Sequence record: OQ955832.1
Source of the DNA: Escherichia phage vB_EcoS_PJ16
Reading direction: 5' to 3' (one strand)
DNA length: 57,756 nucleotides
Under the pieces are notes generated by a model, which ran no database searches, was not told the DNA's origin, and was given only the letters and a program-made list of their open reading frames with translations. The position numbers were made by a program, and so were the translations under genes. This document shows positions 3,476 to 57,756 of the stretch, piece after piece (positions within the stretch are counted from its first letter, which is position 1; every line of letters starts with the position of its first letter).

Positions 3476-3765
3476 ACGTTCACCACTTTTAAATCAGGTG
3501 TCAGGCTACGATGGTCATGATGACCGTTCATCGTAAACGAGAAAGTGTAATCGCACTGCTCACCGTCGAACGTGAAGGGGATTTGAAACCCTGTATCGTC
3601 AGTGATGCGAACTTTAACCGGGTATTCAGCTTGCGGATCGACTGCTACAACAGTGCCGAACGGTTGAGATTTGCGACGTGCGAGAATTTCTAACAGTCGT
3701 GGACTGGTGATTTCTACGTGTTGACCAGTTTTAAACATGGTGATAACTCCAGTTGTTTTACACAA
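3472..3765 (-). CDS. Hypothetical protein (97 aa)
   Basis: Track ORF; first gene downstream of promoter at 3794. Confidence 0.5.
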   Translation of the reverse strand: MCKTTGVITMFKTGQHVEITSPRLLEILARRKSQPFGTVVAVDPQAEYPVKVRITDDTGFQIPFTFDGEQCDYTFSFTMNGHHDHRSLTPDLKVVNV

Positions 3766-3768
3766 ACT

Positions 3769-3815
3769 GAAGTCTATCTGATAATGTGTAAACCGTCAAG
3801 AATTATTTTAAACTG
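3769..3815 (-). promoter_or_regulatory. sigma70-type promoter with UP element (conserved family)
   Basis: -35 TTGACG (3794-3799), 17-bp spacer, -10 TAGACT (3771-3776), AT-rich UP element. Confidence 0.55.
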
Positions 3816-44531: not shown

Positions 44532-44578
44532 TAACTTTAAAAGGTGTTGTGTAATCTGTCAAGAATTATTTTACACTC
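44532..44578 (-). promoter_or_regulatory. sigma70-type promoter with UP element (conserved family)
   Basis: -35 TTGACA (44557-44562), 17-bp spacer, -10 TAAAGT (44534-44539). Confidence 0.6.
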
Positions 44579-48163: not shown

Positions 48164-50518
48164 ATGAAAGGGTTACTGAACCGTAAACAGTGGGTCATGT
48201 GGCGGCTTGAGACAGTCGCCGATCGTCCAAAACCAACAAAAGTACCATATAGCCCGGTACACGGTTATAAAGCCAGTACCACTAACCCTAACGACTGGTC
48301 TGACTATCACACCGCGTTAGGTATGGCGCAAATGTACGGTATGTCCGGCGTTGGTTTTGTATTCACAGAAAATGACCCTTATTTCTTTATCGATGTTGAT
48401 AACTGTCTGGTAGATCAGGCAACAGCTACGTGGTCACCTCTGGCGCATGAATTCGTAAACCGTTTCCCAAATGCTTACACTGAAGTAAGTCAGTCAGGAA
48501 CAGGTTTACATATCATCTGTGCTTATACCAGCATGCCGGAAGGTTTTAACAGTCTGAACGACCAGAAAACCGGGTTGGAAATGTACTGGCGTGATCGTTT
48601 CGTCGCGATGACGCTCACGGGGAATGGTGATGTTGATATTGATTATACCCAGGGCATTCATGATTCTATTGCCCGGTATGGTCGTATCCGTTCAGACCGT
48701 TCCGCACGCTGGACAACAGCACCCTGTGATGACTGGTCAGGTCCGACAGACGACGATGAACTGATTAAAATGGCGTTAAATTCGTCCAGTGCTGCTTCAG
48801 TATTTGGCAATAAAGCGTCATTTGCGGATCTGTGGAATGCAAACGTTGAACGCCTGTCTGTGTCATATCCCAGCGACCAGGGAAAAGACTACAATGCATC
48901 TGCCGCTGATGCTGCCCTGTGTTCACACCTTGCATTCTGGACTGGGAAAGATTGCGAACGCATTGAACGGTTGTTTAACCGTTCCGGGCTGGTTCGTGGT
49001 AAATGGACAGATCGTCAGGATTACCGTGAAAACACAATTCTGGGCGCTGTGGAACGTTGTGATACTGTGTATCGTAGTCAACCGACACTGACACCAGAAC
49101 TGATGAAAGCAGTCACACCAGCGCCTACCATCGTTCCTAACGGTGGAACACCTGCGTACATGAGTGTGAAACCCGGTGAAGGTGCATATGGTTCAAACCA
49201 CACAGTTAACGCATCCACTTTCGTTAATAACTATTATCCGAACAACACATTGATTTTCGTCCAGCAACAGCCGTACCGGTTTAACGGTCGTGTATGGGAA
49301 CGTGTGAGTGAAGATGAACTGAAACATCAGATATCTATGGCAATGCTCGCCAGCGAACCAAAAGCTGACGTGATTAATGGTACGTACAAGGTATTGTCGT
49401 ATTTATTCACACGGGCTGATCGTGAGCTTGGAACATGGCCCGGCGTTGATGTGTCACACTACATTGTATGTCAGAATGGGATACTGGATGTACACACGGG
49501 TAAATGTGATGCACACAACCCGGATTTCTTTACAACCAGTATTTTACCGTATAGCTACGATCCGTTTGCCCGTGCACCAGCGTTTGAACAGTTTCTTAAT
49601 ACAACTCTGGAAGGTGATCAGGAACGTATCGCACTGTTGCAGGAATGGCTGGGTTACATGCTTGTCAACTCGTATGACTATCAGAAAGCGATGCTGTTGA
49701 TTGGTGCACCACGTTCCGGTAAAGGTACGATTGGTCGCATCATTCAGGCACTGGTAGGTGATGAAGCGTATGCAGGGATCACACTAGAGGGTTTAGCCAG
49801 TGATGCGGTACTTGAAACTGTGCTGGATAAATCTGTGCTGTTTATTGGTGATGCTCACAGTGTGTCCGGGCCTGATCGCAACCGAATTCTGGACCGTTTC
49901 AAATCTATTACAGGTTGTGATGCGATTCCGGTTAATCGTAAGTATAAAGGTGCATGGAACGGTCGTTTACCTGGACGTATGACACTGGCTGCTAACAACA
50001 TACCGGCATTTGCTGATGATTCAGGTGCAATGGCTAACCGTTTACTGATCCTACCATTCAACATTTCGTTCCTGGGTCGTGAAGATACCACTCTGGAAGC
50101 ACGACTGATGAAAGAACTACCTGGGATCTGTAACTGGGCGATTGAAGGTTTACAACGGTTACGTGCAAACGGACGGTTTACTGAACCAAAAGCAAGTCTG
50201 GAAGAACGTCAGGAAATTATGGACCAACAATCACCACTTAGAAGTTTTATCAGAGATTGTTGCGAATTGGTATCTGATGGTGAGGTGCACACTGAAGAAC
50301 TCTATGGTCGTTATCGTCTCTGGAAAACACAGGAAGGTGGTCCAGCAATGACTAAAACTGCATTTAGTCGGGCGTTTAAATCCACCCTTCGTGGTAAAGT
50401 GAAAAAAGACGTTGTTAATATAAATAACGTTCGACTAAACGGTTTCAGGGGTATTCGTCTTCTCCCTTTTCAGTCAACAGCTAATATAGTGCCTTTCCCA
50501 CCTGCGAGTAATGGTTAG
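48164..50518 (+). CDS. Primase-polymerase / P4-D5-type helicase
   Basis: 784 aa; N-terminal prim-pol-like region (FIDVD), C-terminal Walker A GAPRSGKGT. Confidence 0.75.
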   Translation: MKGLLNRKQWVMWRLETVADRPKPTKVPYSPVHGYKASTTNPNDWSDYHTALGMAQMYGMSGVGFVFTENDPYFFIDVDNCLVDQATATWSPLAHEFVNRFPNAYTEVSQSGTGLHIICAYTSMPEGFNSLNDQKTGLEMYWRDRFVAMTLTGNGDVDIDYTQGIHDSIARYGRIRSDRSARWTTAPCDDWSGPTDDDELIKMALNSSSAASVFGNKASFADLWNANVERLSVSYPSDQGKDYNASAADAALCSHLAFWTGKDCERIERLFNRSGLVRGKWTDRQDYRENTILGAVERCDTVYRSQPTLTPELMKAVTPAPTIVPNGGTPAYMSVKPGEGAYGSNHTVNASTFVNNYYPNNTLIFVQQQPYRFNGRVWERVSEDELKHQISMAMLASEPKADVINGTYKVLSYLFTRADRELGTWPGVDVSHYIVCQNGILDVHTGKCDAHNPDFFTTSILPYSYDPFARAPAFEQFLNTTLEGDQERIALLQEWLGYMLVNSYDYQKAMLLIGAPRSGKGTIGRIIQALVGDEAYAGITLEGLASDAVLETVLDKSVLFIGDAHSVSGPDRNRILDRFKSITGCDAIPVNRKYKGAWNGRLPGRMTLAANNIPAFADDSGAMANRLLILPFNISFLGREDTTLEARLMKELPGICNWAIEGLQRLRANGRFTEPKASLEERQEIMDQQSPLRSFIRDCCELVSDGEVHTEELYGRYRLWKTQEGGPAMTKTAFSRAFKSTLRGKVKKDVVNINNVRLNGFRGIRLLPFQSTANIVPFPPASNG

Positions 50519-50529
50519 TCGTTGCACAA

Positions 50530-50577
50530 GGACGTGTAAAATAATTCTTGACGAATTACAGATATGTGCGCTATAGT
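50530..50577 (+). promoter_or_regulatory. sigma70-type promoter with UP element (conserved family)
   Basis: TAAAATAATTCTTGACGAATTACA; -35 50548-50553, -10 TATAGT 50572-50577. Confidence 0.55.
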
Positions 50578-50608: not shown

Positions 50609-50821
50609 ATGAAACCACGCTACCGATTAATGAGACTTTCACAGTGTCCTAACGGAACACGGTTTTATTTTTATCGTCTGAAGCAACTATTACCTTTCAC
50701 GTTAATTGCTAACAGCTTCAAGAAACACGAAAGTATTTATCACGAGGGTCATGATTTTAATATAACCGCGCGAAAATACAGAACGTCTATTTATAAACTT
50801 GTGTGGGCTAAGGTGAACTAA
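50609..50821 (+). CDS. Hypothetical protein (70 aa)
   Basis: Track ORF 50564-50821 trimmed to ATG 50609 (AAGGAG RBS), downstream of predicted TSS. Confidence 0.4.
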   Translation: MKPRYRLMRLSQCPNGTRFYFYRLKQLLPFTLIANSFKKHESIYHEGHDFNITARKYRTSIYKLVWAKVN

Positions 50822-50822
50822 A

Positions 50823-51020
50823 ATGAAAAACATATTTGACCGTTTAATTACTGCTATTATTTTCCTTGTATCCATAACACTCGCTTCTTGTATTGTCGGA
50901 CTAATGACCCGTGGTAATCATGCGGAAACACCGTGGTGGTTTCTGGCGGGTCTTGGATTATTAGCGGCTGCTGCATCAATTGGCGCGTGTATGTGGGGAG
51001 TGAAAAACGATCATGACTGA
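50823..51020 (+). CDS. Small membrane protein (65 aa)
   Basis: Two hydrophobic helices. Confidence 0.45.
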   Translation: MKNIFDRLITAIIFLVSITLASCIVGLMTRGNHAETPWWFLAGLGLLAAAASIGACMWGVKNDHD

Positions 51021-51228
51021 GTTCGGTGCTGTAATCAAAAAAGAAGACCGTTATGCACATATTGATACCCGGATTACCTGGGTTGATATCAGTGAAGCTA
51101 CTCTGTTCAGTTCAACTTACATGGCTGGTGTTGCACTTAAAGCACTTCGTGATCAAGGTTTCAATTGCAGAAAAGTAACAATCGCGCCTGTTAAAATCAC
51201 ACGAATTGTCGAGGAGACAGAAGGATGA
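51013..51228 (+). CDS. Hypothetical protein (71 aa)
   Basis: Track ORF. Confidence 0.4.
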   Translation: MTEFGAVIKKEDRYAHIDTRITWVDISEATLFSSTYMAGVALKALRDQGFNCRKVTIAPVKITRIVEETEG

Positions 51229-51905
51229 AAGTCGTCTGGTCGTTATTCGATGGTTCCGGGATTATGGGTTTACCGTGGGCTAAGGCTGGCTATCAGGTTT
51301 ATTGCTTTAATGCTGATTCCGGTAATCACGGGGAATATTTTATTAAAGCTGATCACCCCAATCTTCATTACGTTAATCAATGGATTGATCCACAGTTTGC
51401 AATTAAGCAGGAAATACTGGGAACACCTTTACCGTCAATTATTTTTGGTTTTCCGGATTGCACCCTGTTTGCTCAAAGCGGTTCGCAACATAACCGGGAT
51501 GACGCTGAACTACAGTATGCACTGGCAAACGCAAAACTGATCCGGGAACTCGGAGAACGTTATAACGTACCCTGGATGGTGGAAAACCCTGTCGGTGCTT
51601 TATCGCGTCCTGAAATGATGGGGACACCTGACGCTTATTTTCATCCGTGGGAATATGGCGGTTATATGACAACAGATGATAAACCTTTTCACCCTAAAAT
51701 GCCGATGTTTGACGGATACACGAAGAAAACATGTCTGTGGTTCGGTAACGGTTTCAGAATGCCTGAAAAACGTCCCGGACCGATTAATATTGGTTTCTTC
51801 TGGGGCTGGAAATATCTGGGTGGTAAATCTGAAACAACTAAACAGTTACGTTCATTAACCCCGCGTGGCTTTGCTCGCGCTGTATTTGAGGCTAATAAAC
51901 AATGA
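51225..51905 (+). CDS. C5-cytosine methyltransferase-like protein (short, atypical)
   Basis: Motif I-like LFDGSG, motif IV-like GFPDC, motif VI-like ENPVG; only 226 aa, no obvious target-recognition domain. Confidence 0.5.
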   Translation: MKVVWSLFDGSGIMGLPWAKAGYQVYCFNADSGNHGEYFIKADHPNLHYVNQWIDPQFAIKQEILGTPLPSIIFGFPDCTLFAQSGSQHNRDDAELQYALANAKLIRELGERYNVPWMVENPVGALSRPEMMGTPDAYFHPWEYGGYMTTDDKPFHPKMPMFDGYTKKTCLWFGNGFRMPEKRPGPINIGFFWGWKYLGGKSETTKQLRSLTPRGFARAVFEANKQ

Positions 51906-52297
51906 TAATAGTCGTTACAGGCGGTCGTGACTTCAACGACAGAACAGCGGTATTTTCAGCATTAGGGTTACTTCACAAACAATTCCCGGTTACCGAACTG
52001 ATTGAAGGCGGTGCATCAGGTGTTGATAACCTGTGTAAGCAATGGGCGCAATTACACGGTATTCCTGTACGTAGTTGCCCGGCAGCATGGGACGATCTGA
52101 CTGTACCAGGTGCGGTTGTAAAACAGGGTAAGCATGGGCCTTATAACGCTGTTGCAGGTCATCAACGTAATCAGGCAATGTTAGAGGGTGAACCACGCCC
52201 TACATACGGTGTTGTGTTCCCCGGTGGGCGTGGTACTGCCGACATGCATCGTCGTATGTTGAAAGCTGGTTTAACTGTGTGGGTTCCATATCCTTAA
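51902..52297 (+). CDS. SLOG/LOG-like Rossmann-fold protein (DUF2493-like)
   Basis: VVTGGRDF, GGASGVD and PGGRGTADM motifs. Confidence 0.5.
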   Translation: MIIVVTGGRDFNDRTAVFSALGLLHKQFPVTELIEGGASGVDNLCKQWAQLHGIPVRSCPAAWDDLTVPGAVVKQGKHGPYNAVAGHQRNQAMLEGEPRPTYGVVFPGGRGTADMHRRMLKAGLTVWVPYP

Positions 52298-52334
52298 AAT
52301 AATTCTTGACAGATTACCAACCTCCCCCGATAAT
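52290..52334 (+). promoter_or_regulatory. sigma70-type promoter with UP element (conserved family)
   Basis: TAAAATAATTCTTGACAGATTACC; -35 52306-52311, 17-bp spacer, -10 GATAAT 52329-52334. Confidence 0.6.
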
Positions 52335-52357
52335 TAGCCTCAGTTAACACACATGAG
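52335..52357 (+). promoter_or_regulatory. 5' leader hairpin overlapping SD (inverted version of hairpin at 15257)
   Basis: Stem gcctcag/gaggc; right arm contains GAGG SD of the 52369 gene. Confidence 0.45.
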
Positions 52358-52368
52358 GCTAAACACAA

Positions 52369-53136
52369 ATGGCTAACATTAACTCCCTTCGCAAGCTGTC
52401 TGATACCGATAAAACCAACGTAAAACGTGGTAATGCGTATCGTATTGATCCGCGTATTATCAAGATTCGTCCAGGACATAACCCACGCGGTGTGTTTACC
52501 GACAACTACTGGGAAACTGAAGCAGCACTGGCACACATTGAAAACTTTCGTCAGGCTTATACTAACGGCGATTTCGTTCCACCCATCGTGGTACAGGTTG
52601 TTGACGGTGTTCCGTATGTCCAGGATGGTGAGCATCGTTTACGTGGTGTATTGGCAGCTATTGACGCCGGGACGCCGATTCTGACAGTAGACGTTGTTGA
52701 ATCGTCCGGTGACGAACTACAACAGACCCTGACACTGTTAAAAGGTAATGAAGGTAAACCGTGGTCCCCTGTTGAACGTGCTGTTATTTACGGTCGTTTC
52801 CGTTCATATGGCATGAGTGTTGAGCAGATCGCTACACAGGTCGGTAAAACCGTTCAGCACGTTTACGAACAACTGAATATTCTTGATATGCCGCTGGAAC
52901 TTAAACGTCGTATTCAGAACGGCGAAATCAGCGCGTCAGCAGCCATTCGCCAGTTTAAAGCAGGTGATAAAGAACCAGTAGTAACGCGTCGTCCGCCTGC
53001 TAAACTGGTACGGTCTGCAGTGGAAGCAATCCGTGGTGAATGGTCTGTAACCCGTTCGGAAGGTGGTAAAGTCCTGGTTGAACTTACCGCTGAACAGTTT
53101 GAAGCGTTAAAAGCACTGAAGGAGCACCAGTTATGA
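52369..53136 (+). CDS. ParB-like nuclease domain protein
   Basis: KIRPGHNPRG and DGEHRLRGVLAA resemble ParB/sulfiredoxin N-domain motifs. Confidence 0.65.
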   Translation: MANINSLRKLSDTDKTNVKRGNAYRIDPRIIKIRPGHNPRGVFTDNYWETEAALAHIENFRQAYTNGDFVPPIVVQVVDGVPYVQDGEHRLRGVLAAIDAGTPILTVDVVESSGDELQQTLTLLKGNEGKPWSPVERAVIYGRFRSYGMSVEQIATQVGKTVQHVYEQLNILDMPLELKRRIQNGEISASAAIRQFKAGDKEPVVTRRPPAKLVRSAVEAIRGEWSVTRSEGGKVLVELTAEQFEALKALKEHQL

Positions 53137-53312
53137 AAAACCGTAAAGCAAAGATTCTGTTAGTTCGTAGAAACGCTCCTGGCGTCTGGCAGTGGGTGAG
53201 ACTCAGCAACCGACGGATGGGGTTGATGAAATATTACGGGATGATGGATTGCAGTTTTTGCAAAAAAACCCAGCGCGGCGCAAAACCGCTGGAAAAACCA
53301 CTTTCGCATTAA
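53133..53312 (+). CDS. Hypothetical small basic protein, tandem paralog 1 (59 aa)
   Basis: Not in track; ATGA-coupled to ParB-like gene; NRKAKILLVRR...WVRLSNRRM shared with next gene. Confidence 0.35.
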   Translation: MKNRKAKILLVRRNAPGVWQWVRLSNRRMGLMKYYGMMDCSFCKKTQRGAKPLEKPLSH

Positions 53313-53323
53313 AGGAGAGTGAT

Positions 53324-53521
53324 ATGGCAACCAACAATCGTAAAGCCAAGATGCTTATTTCCCGTGTATACAGCCGTTGCTATCCCAGCCAGTGGTTGAG
53401 AGTTAGCAATCGCCGTATGGTGTTGTACTTATATTCTGGAATTGCCAGAGATGGAATCAAAGATAAGCGTAGCGCGGCGCAAAACCGCTGGAAAAACCAC
53501 TTGCGTACTAAAGGAGAGTGA
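53324..53521 (+). CDS. Hypothetical small basic protein, tandem paralog 2 (65 aa)
   Basis: Track ORF 53192-53521 trimmed to ATG 53324 after AGGAGAG RBS. Confidence 0.4.
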   Translation: MATNNRKAKMLISRVYSRCYPSQWLRVSNRRMVLYLYSGIARDGIKDKRSAAQNRWKNHLRTKGE

Positions 53522-53522
53522 T

Positions 53523-53786
53523 ATGGCAACTTTAACAAAAAAAGAACGGGCATGGTTGAATGAATTACAGGACGTTCTTGATCGCTGCCCATCACCGAAA
53601 AAAATTGGTTTTTACACCATTGGCGATAAAAGCATTTACCTGTATGACCTACGCCGCATGGATGAAATCATGGAGGCTCTTGATAATCGTTCGTCGGTGG
53701 ATTGGTGTGTTGCTGTCCATGATATGAATGCCGGATTTGATGAAAAGATTTTGTTCCCCTCATCAGTTGAAAGCACTGCGGGTTAA
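53523..53786 (+). CDS. Hypothetical protein (87 aa)
   Basis: Track ORF 53442-53786 trimmed to ATG 53523 after repeated RBS element. Confidence 0.45.
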   Translation: MATLTKKERAWLNELQDVLDRCPSPKKIGFYTIGDKSIYLYDLRRMDEIMEALDNRSSVDWCVAVHDMNAGFDEKILFPSSVESTAG

Positions 53787-55501: not shown

Positions 55502-56071
55502 ATGACACCTGAACAATTCGCAACAGCAGCACACGGTGATCAACTTCGTAAGTATACCAACGACCCATATGTGAACCACTGCCGGAACGTTGCTGAACTG
55601 GTTAAACGCTATGGTGGTACGCCGGATATGGTTACCGCTGCCTGGCTGCATGACGTCGTTGAAGATACGCCCGTGACCGTGGGTGATGTGTGTTCGCAGT
55701 TCGGTGAGACTGTGGCACGTTATGTTGATCAGCTTACTGATGTGAGTCGTCCACACCACGGCAACCGTGTTAAGCGTAAAGCACGGGACATCGACCATTT
55801 ATCACGGGCTGAACCTGTGGTGAAAACTATAAAACTGTGTGATCTGCTGGATAACACATCTTCAATTGACCGACACGATCCGAAGTTTGCTGTAACATAC
55901 CTGGCTGAAAAACAACTCATGCTTGCTCACCTGTCAGACGCCAGTAATCAGGAGTTATACGCGCTTGTTGAGCGTGAATTGTTTAAAGCCAAATACAAAC
56001 TAACGAACGTCCAGTTAACCGCGTTTGACAAACACTACGACGCACTGGTTAAAGCGATGGGGGAGTTGTGA
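55502..56071 (+). CDS. HD-domain phosphohydrolase, SpoT/RelA-hydrolase-like
   Basis: AAHGDQLRK, H-x3-VA and AAWLHDVVEDT match the (p)ppGpp-hydrolase HD signature. Confidence 0.65.
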   Translation: MTPEQFATAAHGDQLRKYTNDPYVNHCRNVAELVKRYGGTPDMVTAAWLHDVVEDTPVTVGDVCSQFGETVARYVDQLTDVSRPHHGNRVKRKARDIDHLSRAEPVVKTIKLCDLLDNTSSIDRHDPKFAVTYLAEKQLMLAHLSDASNQELYALVERELFKAKYKLTNVQLTAFDKHYDALVKAMGEL

Positions 56072-56640: not shown

Positions 56641-56672
56641 CTAAAAAGCGGGGCTAATTACCCCGCTATCTT
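56641..56672. terminator. Bidirectional terminator hairpin
   Basis: Stem agcgggg/ccccgct; T-run on minus strand side after the 56672-57475 gene. Confidence 0.6.
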
Positions 56673-57475
56673 TATTGACCCATCATATCTTTATACATCA
56701 TCAAAACAACATCATCCGGCATATTATCTACATCGCAATGCGGGTTATGTGATAACGCATACAGTCTGATTTTCTCCTTCAAATCGCTGACATCGACTAC
56801 AGGTGCTTCCACTCGTGTTACAGGTGCTTCCACTCGTGATACAGATGCTTCCACTCGTGCTACAGGTGGTTCCACTCGTGCTACAGGTGGTTCCACTCGT
56901 GCTACAGGTGGTTCACAAACCATCACGTTAAACGGTGTTCCGGTGCCTTCGTATTTTTCAAGCAAATCGACCATTACGTTTACACATTCCGGGATCCAGC
57001 CCCGGCGCAAACCATTCTGAATCCAACTGTCAGTAATTGTGTGTTCGTTTAAATTCCTGCGTAACACGTATCTTGCACATTCAAAATTACCGCACATCGC
57101 CTCAAACCGTGTCCACACGTCGTGACCGTGAACAGCTTCCAGGATCTGTGAATCAACGTATCTGACACGTTGCCAGTAGTTATTAGCAAAACGCCTGTGT
57201 GGTAATTTCTGACGCAGTTCGGTAACCGGTATTGTGTGTTTAAGAACAATGTTTTCGTCAGAATGTTGTACTGTCAAGGGTGACAGTGTGAAGTCAGTAA
57301 TCTCTTCAAGAATAATACTGATCGTTTCATATTTAGGATGAAACCTACCGCTTAACCATTGATTGTAACGACCAACAGTTACCTTAACACCTCGACGATT
57401 AAGGTATTCAACAGCATTTTGTACCCCGCCTTTTAAATCTATCAATTCGTCTAAAAGGTTCTTTTTCATTATCAC
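56672..57475 (-). CDS. Hypothetical protein with VEPPVAR heptad tandem repeats (267 aa)
   Basis: Strong RBS AGGAGGGG; 21-bp in-frame repeats near C-terminus. Confidence 0.55.
   Translation of the reverse strand: MIMKKNLLDELIDLKGGVQNAVEYLNRRGVKVTVGRYNQWLSGRFHPKYETISIILEEITDFTLSPLTVQHSDENIVLKHTIPVTELRQKLPHRRFANNYWQRVRYVDSQILEAVHGHDVWTRFEAMCGNFECARYVLRRNLNEHTITDSWIQNGLRRGWIPECVNVMVDLLEKYEGTGTPFNVMVCEPPVARVEPPVARVEPPVARVEASVSRVEAPVTRVEAPVVDVSDLKEKIRLYALSHNPHCDVDNMPDDVVLMMYKDMMGQ
56799..56916 (-). repeat. 21-bp tandem repeat, about 5.5 copies (in-frame)
   Basis: acaggtgcttccactcgtgtt and variants, read directly. Confidence 0.85.
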
Positions 57476-57756
57476 CCCTCCTTATTCAACCACGGGTAAA
57501 GCATAACTCGTGTTGGCAGCTAGTGCAAGATGTGCTTTATATGTTAGTGTATTTACACCTAATGCATGTTGTGCTTTAGCAGCTAGTGCAAGATGCACGT
57601 TGTGTATTAGCTGTTAGTGCACGTTGTGTATCTATGTTGGTACAGCTAATGCACGTTGTGAATTATATAGTGCATATAGTGCATTAAAGTTATACTTAAC
57701 ATAGATTTCGTCATGTTTATTTTTTGATCAACCCCTCATTATCTTTTTATAGATAA
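57476..57756. repeat. AT-rich non-coding repeat region (left half of hub A)
   Basis: Direct repeats GCACGTTGTG x3 plus variants, agctagtgcaagatg x2; 57700-57756 homologous to 17690-17760. Confidence 0.65.
57498..57530 (-). promoter_or_regulatory. Putative sigma70 promoter for 56672-57475 gene
   Basis: Minus strand TTGCAC-17 bp-TATGCT followed by leader ACCCGTGGTT similar to hub B promoters. Confidence 0.4.

What the first reader, a model, noticed from the sequence alone, without database searches (positions are those of the whole stretch)
51225..53136. Clustered C5-methyltransferase-like, SLOG-domain and ParB-like nuclease genes: possible DNA-modification or nucleotide-interference module
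Three adjacent early genes encode a short atypical C5-MTase-like protein (motifs I, IV as PDC rather than PC, VI as ENP; no obvious TRD), a SLOG/LOG-like Rossmann protein and a ParB/sulfiredoxin-fold nuclease-domain protein. The combination is not a standard restriction-modification layout. It could be a DNA-modification pathway, an anti-restriction module, or a nucleotide-signal sponge. The conserved strong promoter sits between the SLOG and ParB genes.
Basis: partly seen in the sequence, partly recalled or inferred. Interest (0 to 1): 0.7.

Follow-up and report, generated by a model that had tools for sequence, protein, structure and literature searches.

The report
Three unlinked accessory phage early genes
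The three neighbouring genes are real and correctly named (a small cytosine DNA methylase, a SLOG nucleotide-binding protein and a ParB-like DNA-binding protein), but related phages gain and lose them separately, so they are ordinary accessory genes and not a new DNA-modification module.

Summary
The window is a 9NA-like/Sashavirus siphophage, about 96% identical to phages BDX09P1, PDP46 and Sasha. GenBank records of these relatives already name the three genes. All three ORFs and the promoter between the second and third are confirmed.

ORF1 (226 aa) has a C5-cytosine methyltransferase fold; its best structural matches are DNMT3B, DNMT3A and M.HhaI. It is 43% identical to a Warwickvirus gene with the length and catalytic residue numbers published for the phage K42 "Dcm". 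That enzyme, expressed alone, puts 5mC into DNA and triggers retron Ec86.

ORF2 is a standard stand-alone DUF2493/YAcAr SLOG protein.

ORF3 is an orphan ParB homologue with an N-terminal domain and an HTH. Nothing points to a nuclease.

The module idea fails on comparative evidence. Among 15 9NA-like loci, 10 have the methylase, 14 the SLOG and 14 an intact ParB. In 80 other viral loci for the methylase and 80 for the SLOG, the partner genes appear together only in 9NA-like phages.

The most likely reading is three independent accessory genes in a mosaic early region. This is already known and of low interest. The SLOG's biochemical role and the ParB's role remain open.

The parts
50537..50577 (+). 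Upstream copy of the conserved promoter: the box TAAAATAATTCTTGAC followed by TTGACG-18-TATAGT. It is the likely start of the transcript that carries the small ORFs, the methylase and the SLOG gene.
   Evidence: Promoter scan, (10 of 12 matches). The shared 26-nt box is shown. The box is present at the equivalent place in 13 of the 14 related loci; the exception, L005, begins downstream of that position.
51225..51905 (+). Orphan Dcm-like C5-cytosine DNA methyltransferase, 226 aa, with a minimal target-recognition region.
51902..52297 (+). Stand-alone SLOG protein of the DUF2493/YAcAr family, 131 aa.
52295..52334 (+). Conserved promoter in front of the ParB-like gene: the box TAAAATAATTCTTGAC, with TTGACA-17-GATAAT at 52306-52334.
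   Evidence: It is conserved in 9NA, Sasha-like and Klebsiella relatives, while the sequence just upstream of it differs between phages.
52335..52361 (.). Palindrome TAGCCTCA-N11-TGAGGCTA between the -10 hexamer and the parB start codon. The right arm contains the Shine-Dalgarno GAGG. It is a candidate operator or a translation-control hairpin.
   Evidence: Sequence. The arms are invariant and the loop varies in seven relatives. No further copies of the palindrome occur in the window. Its function is inferred only.
52369..53136 (+). Orphan ParB-like protein, 255 aa: a divergent ParB/Srx-type N-terminal domain with GEHRxR in place of GERRxR, followed by a ParB HTH. No parA gene lies beside it.
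   Evidence: phrog_1033, E 5e-59. PF17762, 28.9 bits. The family profile matches T. thermophilus Spo0J at E 7.6e-10 over profile positions 54-210, and also ParB, Noc and KorB. DGEHRxR is conserved across the family.

Best explanation
These are three independent accessory genes sitting side by side in the mosaic rightward region downstream of the primase/helicase gene of a 9NA-like virulent siphophage. They are not a pathway.

(1) ORF1 is an orphan, stand-alone C5-cytosine DNA methyltransferase of the widespread phage 'Dcm-like' family. It most likely methylates phage and host DNA after replication, so that progeny DNA escapes some cytosine-sensitive restriction enzymes. The cost is that it can set off retron Ec86/Eco1. 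The fold and the homology are shown here. Activity is shown only for a homologue. The target sequence and the protective role are inferred.

(2) ORF2 is a DUF2493/YAcAr SLOG protein. It most likely binds or cleaves a nucleotide-derived small molecule, probably an NAD+/ADP-ribose derivative, as a counter-measure to host signalling immunity. This function is inferred.

(3) ORF3 is an orphan ParB-type DNA-binding protein with its own conserved promoter. It most likely acts as a sequence-specific regulator or organiser of phage DNA, and it is dispensable for growth. This role is inferred.
For: Identity of the phage and existing annotation.

Methylase:
- The fold search returns only C5-MTases at the top.
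- The catalytic Cys79, Glu120 and Lys167/168 align with C82, E128, K175 and K176 of the K42 Dcm family member.
- That enzyme, expressed alone, raised 5mC in msDNA by LC-MS and triggers retron Ec86.
- The family occurs in 1490 of 50,697 phage records, across Drexlerviridae, Dhillonvirus, Phapecoctavirus and Klebsiella phages.

Independence of the three genes:
- 9NA has the methylase and ParB but no SLOG.
- Bas82, AVIO78A, VLCpiS10a and L088 have the SLOG and ParB but no methylase.
- 536P12 has the SLOG with only an internally deleted ParB remnant.
- Inserts between the genes differ: an HNH gene in Sasha, a NADAR gene in AVIO78A and a 231-nt ORF in PDP46 and Bas82.
- Outside 9NA-like phages there is no co-location.

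SLOG: family, fold and invariant pocket residues. A NADAR domain gene (E 1e-22) directly follows it in AVIO78A. This matches the published SLOG-NADAR-Macro association and the predicted action on ADP-ribose signals (PMC9503650).

ParB. It has its own promoter, and the mosaic breakpoints fall just upstream of that promoter.
Against: - The SLOG-then-ParB order is kept in 13 of the 15 9NA-like loci with both genes intact, and in 536P12 with only a ParB remnant. The methylase stop and the SLOG start overlap in the window. A functional link inside this phage group therefore cannot be excluded.
- Phage ParB homologues are now known to activate DNA-modifying 5mYOX dioxygenases (PMC13229309), which is a precedent for a ParB-modification partnership.
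- The window enzyme has D instead of P directly before the catalytic Cys, and Y-x-K-K-T where canonical enzymes have Q-x-R-x-R. Its activity and target site are untested.
- No member of DUF2493 has been characterised biochemically.
- In other phages the SLOG sits among replication and recombination genes, which would also fit a DprA-like role on DNA.
Confidence: 0.65

Rival explanations
1. An integrated DNA-modification module. The ParB-like protein loads on phage DNA and directs or activates the methylase, which has almost no recognition domain, much as phage ParB homologues activate 5mYOX thymine dioxygenases. The SLOG protein supplies or senses a nucleotide cofactor.
For: - The methylase has only about 35-40 residues where a target-recognition domain should be, and its closest structures are DNMT3A/B, which work with partner proteins.
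- ParB-dependent DNA-modifying enzymes exist in phages.
- ParB-methyltransferase fusions are common in phages.
- The three genes are adjacent in 9 of 15 9NA-like loci.
Against: - The K42 family member methylates DNA when expressed alone in E. coli.
- 69 of 80 viral loci carrying this methylase have no ParB homologue within 6 kb.
- ParB is kept in five phages that lack the methylase.
- ParB has its own promoter, and mosaic breakpoints separate it from the upstream genes.
- The 5mYOX-associated ParBs lack the HTH that this protein has.
Confidence: 0.06
2. A SLOG-ParB functional pair. The SLOG protein senses a nucleotide signal and modulates the ParB-like DNA-binding protein. The methylase is an unrelated passenger.
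For: - SLOG and an intact ParB co-occur in the same order in 13 of 15 9NA-like loci, including Klebsiella relatives only about 70-80% identical to the window.
- Published surveys note sporadic SLOG fusions to HTH and other DNA-binding domains (PMC9503650).
Against: - 9NA has ParB without the SLOG.
- 536P12 keeps the SLOG while ParB is deleted.
- A promoter and variable inserts (HNH, NADAR, a 231-nt ORF) separate the two genes.
- None of the 73 SLOG loci outside 9NA-like phages has this ParB within 5 kb.
Confidence: 0.1
3. The SLOG protein works on DNA, like DprA (single-strand DNA binding and recombinase loading) in phage replication or recombination, and not on small-molecule signals.
For: - In 73 other viral loci its recurrent neighbours are an SF2 helicase, a Cas4-like nuclease, a beta clamp and a DNA polymerase.
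- In ICP1 a DUF2493 domain is fused to an SF1B helicase.
Against: - The invariant residues cluster in the glycine-rich nucleotide loops typical of ligand-binding or enzymatic SLOG proteins.
- It is adjacent to a NADAR gene in AVIO78A.
- It is only 131 aa, without the extra domains of DprA.
- 9NA does without it.
Confidence: 0.15

Closest known systems
Phage K42 / KarlJaspers (Drexlerviridae) 'Dcm', the trigger of retron Ec86/Eco1 (bioRxiv 10.1101/2023.08.16.553469)
   Same: Both are stand-alone proteins of about 230 aa. The window ORF is 43% identical (E 9e-60) to the Warwickvirus tonn gene, which has the published gene length and residue numbering. Motif I (SLFDGSG), the catalytic Cys, the ENP motif, the KK pair and the C-terminal RSLTPRGFARAVFE are shared.
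   Different: The window protein has F-P-D-C where K42/tonn has F-H-P-C. It sits in a different phage family and genome context. Its activity, target site and retron triggering have not been tested.
DNMT3A/DNMT3B catalytic domain and bacterial type II C5-MTases (M.HhaI, M.HaeIII, prophage 3g7u)
   Different: There is no significant sequence match: Pfam PF00145 gives 11.1 bits against a cut-off of 22, and PDB profile E-values are about 1. Motif VIII reads Y-x-K-K-T instead of Q-x-R-x-R. The target-recognition region is reduced to about 35-40 residues. No cognate endonuclease is present.
SLOG superfamily: DUF2493/YAcAr, YpsA, LOG phosphoribohydrolases, the ThsA SLOG domain, DprA
   Same: It passes the Pfam YAcAr threshold, has the Rossmannoid fold and carries the conserved glycine-rich loops.
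   Different: No member of DUF2493 has a demonstrated ligand or reaction. This subgroup carries a 17-residue insert (aa 64-80) that is absent from most members.
Chromosomal and plasmid ParB/Spo0J, Noc and KorB (CTP-dependent DNA clamps)
   Same: The N-terminal ParB domain plus the HTH align over about 150 residues. Box II G-E-x-R-x-R and the Asn of box III are kept.
   Different: There is no adjacent parA. Box II is GEHR and box III is GNEGK instead of ENLQR. Pfam ParBc is not detected in any of 21 family members. The host is a virulent phage, and a natural deletion exists in 536P12.
Phage ParB homologues that activate 5mYOX thymine dioxygenases (PMC13229309), and ParB-methyltransferase fusions in phages (bioRxiv 10.1101/2025.10.10.680097)
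   Same: In each case an orphan ParB-fold protein is encoded near a DNA-modifying enzyme in a phage.
   Different: Those ParBs lack an HTH and are consistently co-located with their enzyme. Here the ParB has an HTH, and its presence is independent of the methylase.

Membership tests
C5-cytosine DNA methyltransferase | Class I Rossmann-type methyltransferase fold with C5-MTase topology | tested here: met
C5-cytosine DNA methyltransferase | Motif I, F-x-G-x-G (AdoMet binding) | tested here: met
   F8-D9-G10-S11-G12 is invariant in close homologues. The wider family reads LFDxTG.
C5-cytosine DNA methyltransferase | Motif IV, Pro-Cys with the catalytic cysteine | tested here: inconclusive
   Cys79 is invariant in 66 diverse members. 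The residue before it is D here, giving P-D-C. The family shows PPC, PDC, PSC, PVC and PEC.
C5-cytosine DNA methyltransferase | Motif VI, E-N-V (the glutamate that protonates cytosine N3) | tested here: met
   E120 and P122 are invariant and N121 is at least 90% conserved. ENP occurs in 109 of 127 cluster representatives.
C5-cytosine DNA methyltransferase | Motif VIII, Q-x-R-x-R | tested here: not met
   The equivalent position reads Y165-T-K167-K168-T169, with Y, K167 and T169 invariant. The KK pair was among the residues mutated to inactivate K42 Dcm.
C5-cytosine DNA methyltransferase | A sizeable target-recognition domain between motifs VIII and IX | tested here: not met
   Only about 35-40 residues (aa 175-208) lie between strand 169-174 and the C-terminal helices.
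C5-cytosine DNA methyltransferase | Pfam PF00145 at the gathering score | tested here: not met
   11.1 bits against a cut-off of 22. Only 2 of 66 family members reach E <= 0.01.
C5-cytosine DNA methyltransferase | Formation of 5-methylcytosine in DNA | not testable with these tools
   Shown by LC-MS for the K42 homologue only. I did not see the K42 sequence; the link rests on the matching gene length and residue numbers in tonn.
Phage Dcm-like minimal MTase family (phrog_757) | Full-length similarity to the family profile and to a member matching the characterised enzyme | tested here: met
   phrog_757, E 8.6e-80 over residues 1-225. 43% identity, E 9e-60, to the tonn 236-aa protein with C82, E128, K175 and K176.
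SLOG superfamily, YAcAr/DUF2493 family | Pfam PF10686 at the gathering score | tested here: met
   70.4 bits against a cut-off of 28.2. All 120 listed homologues carry PF10686.
SLOG superfamily, YAcAr/DUF2493 family | SLOG Rossmannoid fold with glycine-rich nucleotide loops | tested here: met
SLOG superfamily, YAcAr/DUF2493 family | Binding or cleavage of a nucleotide ligand | not testable with these tools
   No biochemical study of DUF2493 was found.
ParB/Spo0J family | ParB-type HTH DNA-binding domain | tested here: met
   PF17762, 28.9 bits against a cut-off of 22.6. All 21 family members match.
ParB/Spo0J family | N-terminal ParB/Srx (CTPase-fold) domain with box II GERRxR and box III ENLQR | tested here: inconclusive
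   The family profile aligns to Spo0J from residue about 54, through boxes II and III (E 7.6e-10). However, box II is GEHRLR, box III is GNEGK, and Pfam ParBc is not detected. TIGR00180 gives 36 bits against a cut-off of 58.
ParB/Spo0J family | A partner ParA ATPase and repeated parS sites (a partition system) | tested here: not met
   No parA-like gene flanks it in the window or in annotated relatives. The promoter-proximal palindrome has no further copies in the window.
ParB-like nuclease | Demonstrable nuclease domain or activity | not testable with these tools
   No nuclease family was matched in Pfam, NCBIfam or PADLOC. The 'nuclease' label is only the historical Pfam name of the ParB N-terminal domain.
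Restriction-modification system | A cognate restriction endonuclease next to the methylase | tested here: not met
   The neighbours are small ORFs, the SLOG and ParB. PADLOC gives only weak MTase_II hits, E >= 1e-3.

The most novel reading that the evidence does not exclude
In 9NA-like phages the orphan ParB-like HTH protein loads at specific sites on phage DNA and targets or activates the methylase, which lacks a recognition domain, in the way ParB homologues activate phage 5mYOX dioxygenases. The SLOG protein tunes this through a nucleotide ligand. That would be a ParB-guided, locus-specific cytosine methylation system in a virulent phage.
Probability: 0.05. Interest if true: 0.6.

Novelty: already known. 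Interest (0 to 1): 0.17.

Why it matters
It matters little as a discovery. Near-identical genes are already annotated in public phage genomes; PDP46, for example, lists a 'cytosine specific methyltransferase', a 'SLOG cluster4 family protein' and a 'ParB-like partition protein'. The methylase family already has a characterised member.

There are two practical consequences. Phages carrying this methylase are predicted to be sensitive to retron Ec86/Eco1 and to methyl-dependent restriction, which is relevant when choosing therapeutic 9NA-like phages. The natural set of variants (with and without the methylase, the SLOG, NADAR and ParB) is also a ready-made panel for finding out what phage DUF2493 SLOG proteins and orphan ParB proteins do. 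Both questions are still open.

Tried and rejected
- Sequence searches of ORF1 against solved structures gave nothing significant, with the single sequence (M.HaeIII, E 0.28) or with a 66-member profile (DNMT2 0.8, HaeIII 1.1). Only the fold comparison settled it.
- NCBIfam gave no hit for ORF1 or ORF2. PADLOC gave only marginal MTase_II hits and nothing for the SLOG.
- The SLOG profile against PDB sequences gave only chance-level hits. My recollection that its H-Q-R-N..M and PGGxGTADM motifs mirror the LOG motifs MH(E/Q)RK and PGGxGTxxE therefore remains an untested lead.
- The search for related loci with the diverse alignment A1 failed because no stretch was conserved enough. I repeated it with closer sequences.
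- The main genomics paper on 9NA-like phages (PMC6819911) is not held in the library.
- I looked for further copies of the promoter-proximal palindrome as possible parS sites. There are none beyond a single half-site.
- I considered reading the methylase target from oligonucleotide bias. CCWGG has observed/expected 0.69 and CCGG 1.4, while most palindromes are depleted. This is not interpretable without methylome data.
- I rejected 'ParB nuclease' and the PHROG label 'GTP-binding domain' for the SLOG, because no result supports either.
- I rejected a restriction-modification system because there is no endonuclease partner.
Full report
**What the window is.** The region 50800-53400 is 95-96% identical to Sashavirus BDX09P1, Escherichia phage PDP46 and Salmonella phages Sasha, Sergei and Solent, and 83% identical to Salmonella phage 9NA. 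The window is therefore a 9NA-like (Nonanavirus/Sashavirus) virulent siphophage. In PDP46 the three genes are already annotated as 'cytosine specific methyltransferase', 'SLOG cluster4 family protein' and 'ParB-like partition protein'. They lie on the + strand downstream of a 784-aa primase/helicase gene at 48164-50518, which matches NrS-1 polymerase-like, D5_N and DUF5906 domains.

**Checking the observation.** The three ORFs are at the stated coordinates. A near-consensus sigma-70 site, TTGACA-17-GATAAT, sits at 52306-52334 between the SLOG and ParB genes. Its 26-nt upstream part, TAAAATAATTCTTGAC..ATTAC, is repeated at 50537-50559 (+), in front of the small ORFs that precede the methylase, and near 44550-44576 on the minus strand. 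The box is found before parB, or before the extra ORF that precedes parB, in 13 of the 14 related loci. The exception is AVIO78A, whose record annotates a one-mismatch promoter at that position.

**ORF1 (51225-51905).** Sequence methods alone are weak. Pfam DNA_methylase gives E 0.26, below threshold, M.HaeIII gives E 0.28, and a 66-member profile finds nothing significant in the PDB.
- The protein belongs to a very large family of stand-alone 200-260-aa proteins: 893 clusters at 50% identity, phrog_757 at E 9e-80, and tblastn hits in 1490 of 50,697 phage records.
- Cys79, Glu120, Pro122, Tyr165, Lys167 and Thr169 are invariant across the family.
The diverse representatives mostly have PPC, and PSC, PVC and PEC also occur.
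- Canonical motif VIII (QxRxR) is replaced by YxKKT, and only about 35-40 residues stand where a recognition domain would be.

**A characterised relative of ORF1.** The retron Ec86 study (bioRxiv 10.1101/2023.08.16.553469) identified a 711-bp 'dcm' gene in the Drexlerviridae phage K42.
- The authors modelled it on DNMT3A and named C82, E128, K175 and K176 as catalytic or substrate-binding residues.
- Expressed alone in E. coli, it raised 5mC in msDNA by LC-MS.
- Escape mutants of the phage had lost the gene.
- The CCWGG specificity was assumed by analogy with host Dcm. It is supported only indirectly, by mutation of the msDNA site.

I did not see the K42 sequence. However, the corresponding 711-bp gene of the related Warwickvirus tonn encodes 236 aa with exactly C82, E128, K175 and K176. 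It is 43% identical (E 9e-60) to ORF1 over the full length, with all of these residues aligned. ORF1 is therefore a member of a known, active, orphan phage C5-MTase family. Its own activity and target site are inferred.

**ORF2 (51902-52297).** Pfam YAcAr/DUF2493 gives 70.4 bits against a cut-off of 28.2. There are 807 homologues, all carrying PF10686, in phages and bacteria.
- The AF2 model has pLDDT 96.4.
- The invariant residues sit in the glycine-rich loops GGR, GGAxGxD, AGxxRNxxM and FPGGxGTADM.
- No biochemical study of this family was found.
- Published comparative genomics predicts that viral YpsA-like SLOG proteins bind or process NAD+/ADP-ribose-derived immune signals, and notes their association with NADAR and Macro domains (PMC9503650; PMC7824862). 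In line with this, in the relative AVIO78A the SLOG gene is directly followed by a NADAR gene (PF08719, E 1.4e-22).

**ORF3 (52369-53136).** It matches PF17762 (ParB HTH) above threshold. Spo0J, ParB, Noc and KorB structures align over residues of about 54-210, at E 4e-7 with the single sequence and 7.6e-10 with the family profile.
- The N-terminal domain is divergent. Box II is GEHRLR, conserved across the family. Box III is GNEGK. Pfam ParBc is not detected in any of 21 members.
- The family is narrow, with 29 clusters.
- There is no parA neighbour and no sign of a nuclease.
- A palindrome, TAGCCTCA-N11-TGAGGCTA, lies between the -10 hexamer and the start codon. Its arms are invariant in relatives, and it has no other copy in the window.

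**Is it a module?**

| Test set | Result |
|---|---|
| 15 distinct 9NA-like loci | methylase in 10, SLOG in 14, intact ParB in 14, all three in 9 |
| 80 IMG/VR loci with the methylase family | SLOG within 6 kb in 6, all 9NA-like; any ParB homologue in 11 |
| 80 IMG/VR loci with a DUF2493 SLOG | methylase family in 6 and this ParB family in 7, all 9NA-like |

- Within the 9NA-like group, 9NA lacks the SLOG. Bas82, AVIO78A, VLCpiS10a, L088 and 536P12 lack the methylase.
- In 536P12 the ParB gene is reduced to a 48-codon remnant that joins residues of about 30-41 to 224-255.
- The material between the genes also varies: an HNH gene, a NADAR gene, a 231-nt ORF or a 194-nt gap.
- Sequence similarity between relatives breaks immediately upstream of the parB promoter.
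- Recurrent SLOG neighbours in the other viral loci are replication and recombination genes.
- Bas82, which has the SLOG and ParB but no methylase, is reported as markedly sensitive to restriction-modification systems (PMC11990801).

The comparative evidence therefore argues against a dedicated three-gene system.

**What keeps the rival readings alive.** Phage ParB homologues can activate DNA-modifying 5mYOX enzymes (PMC13229309), and ParB-methyltransferase fusions are common in phages. A ParB-methylase partnership is conceivable for an enzyme with almost no recognition domain. Against it, the K42 homologue works alone, most phages with this methylase have no ParB nearby, and ParB persists without the methylase. 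I give that reading about 5%.

**Verdict.** These are three ordinary, independently mobile accessory genes of known families, already annotated in near-identical genomes. The open points are the ligand or reaction of the DUF2493 SLOG protein and the role of the orphan ParB. I set interest at 0.17.

Noticed in passing
window 55502-56071 (+): A 189-aa ORF with an HD_4 domain (PF13328, E 1.5e-15), the RelA/SpoT-type hydrolase fold. It is a possible small alarmone (ppGpp) hydrolase in the same rightward gene block. PDP46 and Bas82 annotate the equivalent gene as a RelA/SpoT family protein or a metal-dependent phosphohydrolase.
   Followed up: partly
window 53133-53530: A tandem duplication of about 200 bp just downstream of parB (copies 53272-53331 and 53471-53530 are 95% identical). 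It gives two paralogous small ORFs sharing the motif NRKAK...W.RVSNRRM. The first copy (53133-53328) is 97% identical to sequence in Stx-converting prophages and in the P1-like phage RCS47.
   Followed up: no
window 56776-56935, inside the minus-strand ORF 56672-57475: About seven tandem copies of a 21-nt unit. They encode heptad repeats (EPPVARV / EAPVTRV) in a 267-aa protein of unknown function. The Sasha record annotates a 'direct tandem repeat region' at the equivalent position.
   Followed up: no
window 57513-57673: Four diverged copies of a repeat of about 35 nt (core TGCA(A/C)G(A/T)TGTG) in the non-coding right end of the window. They could be binding sites for a regulator or for an origin or packaging protein.
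   Followed up: no
window 52335-52361: A perfect 8-bp inverted repeat, TAGCCTCA-N11-TGAGGCTA, between the parB promoter -10 hexamer and the start codon. The right arm contains the Shine-Dalgarno GAGG. The arms are invariant and the loop varies among 9NA-like phages. It could be an operator or a hairpin that masks the ribosome-binding site.
   Followed up: partly
L166 (Escherichia phage AVIO78A) 1903-2713: In this relative the methylase is absent and the SLOG gene is followed, with overlapping ends, by a 140-aa NADAR-domain gene (PF08719, E 1.4e-22). The GenBank record mislabels that gene 'ParB-like protein' and labels the SLOG 'swarming motility protein'.
   Followed up: yes
L167 (Sashavirus 536P12) 3650-3796: The ParB-like gene is reduced to a 48-codon ORF by an internal deletion of about 180 codons, and the methylase is also missing. 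This suggests that ParB is dispensable for propagation, if the assembly is correct.
   Followed up: partly
whole window: Many 6-bp palindromes are strongly depleted (CCCGGG 3 observed against 20.8 expected, GGTACC 0 against 12.6, AAGCTT 0 against 9.1, CAGCTG 1 against 15.1), and CTAG, AGCT and GGCC are depleted. CCGG is the only 4-bp palindrome that is clearly over-represented (206 against 147). CCWGG has observed/expected 0.69.
   Followed up: no
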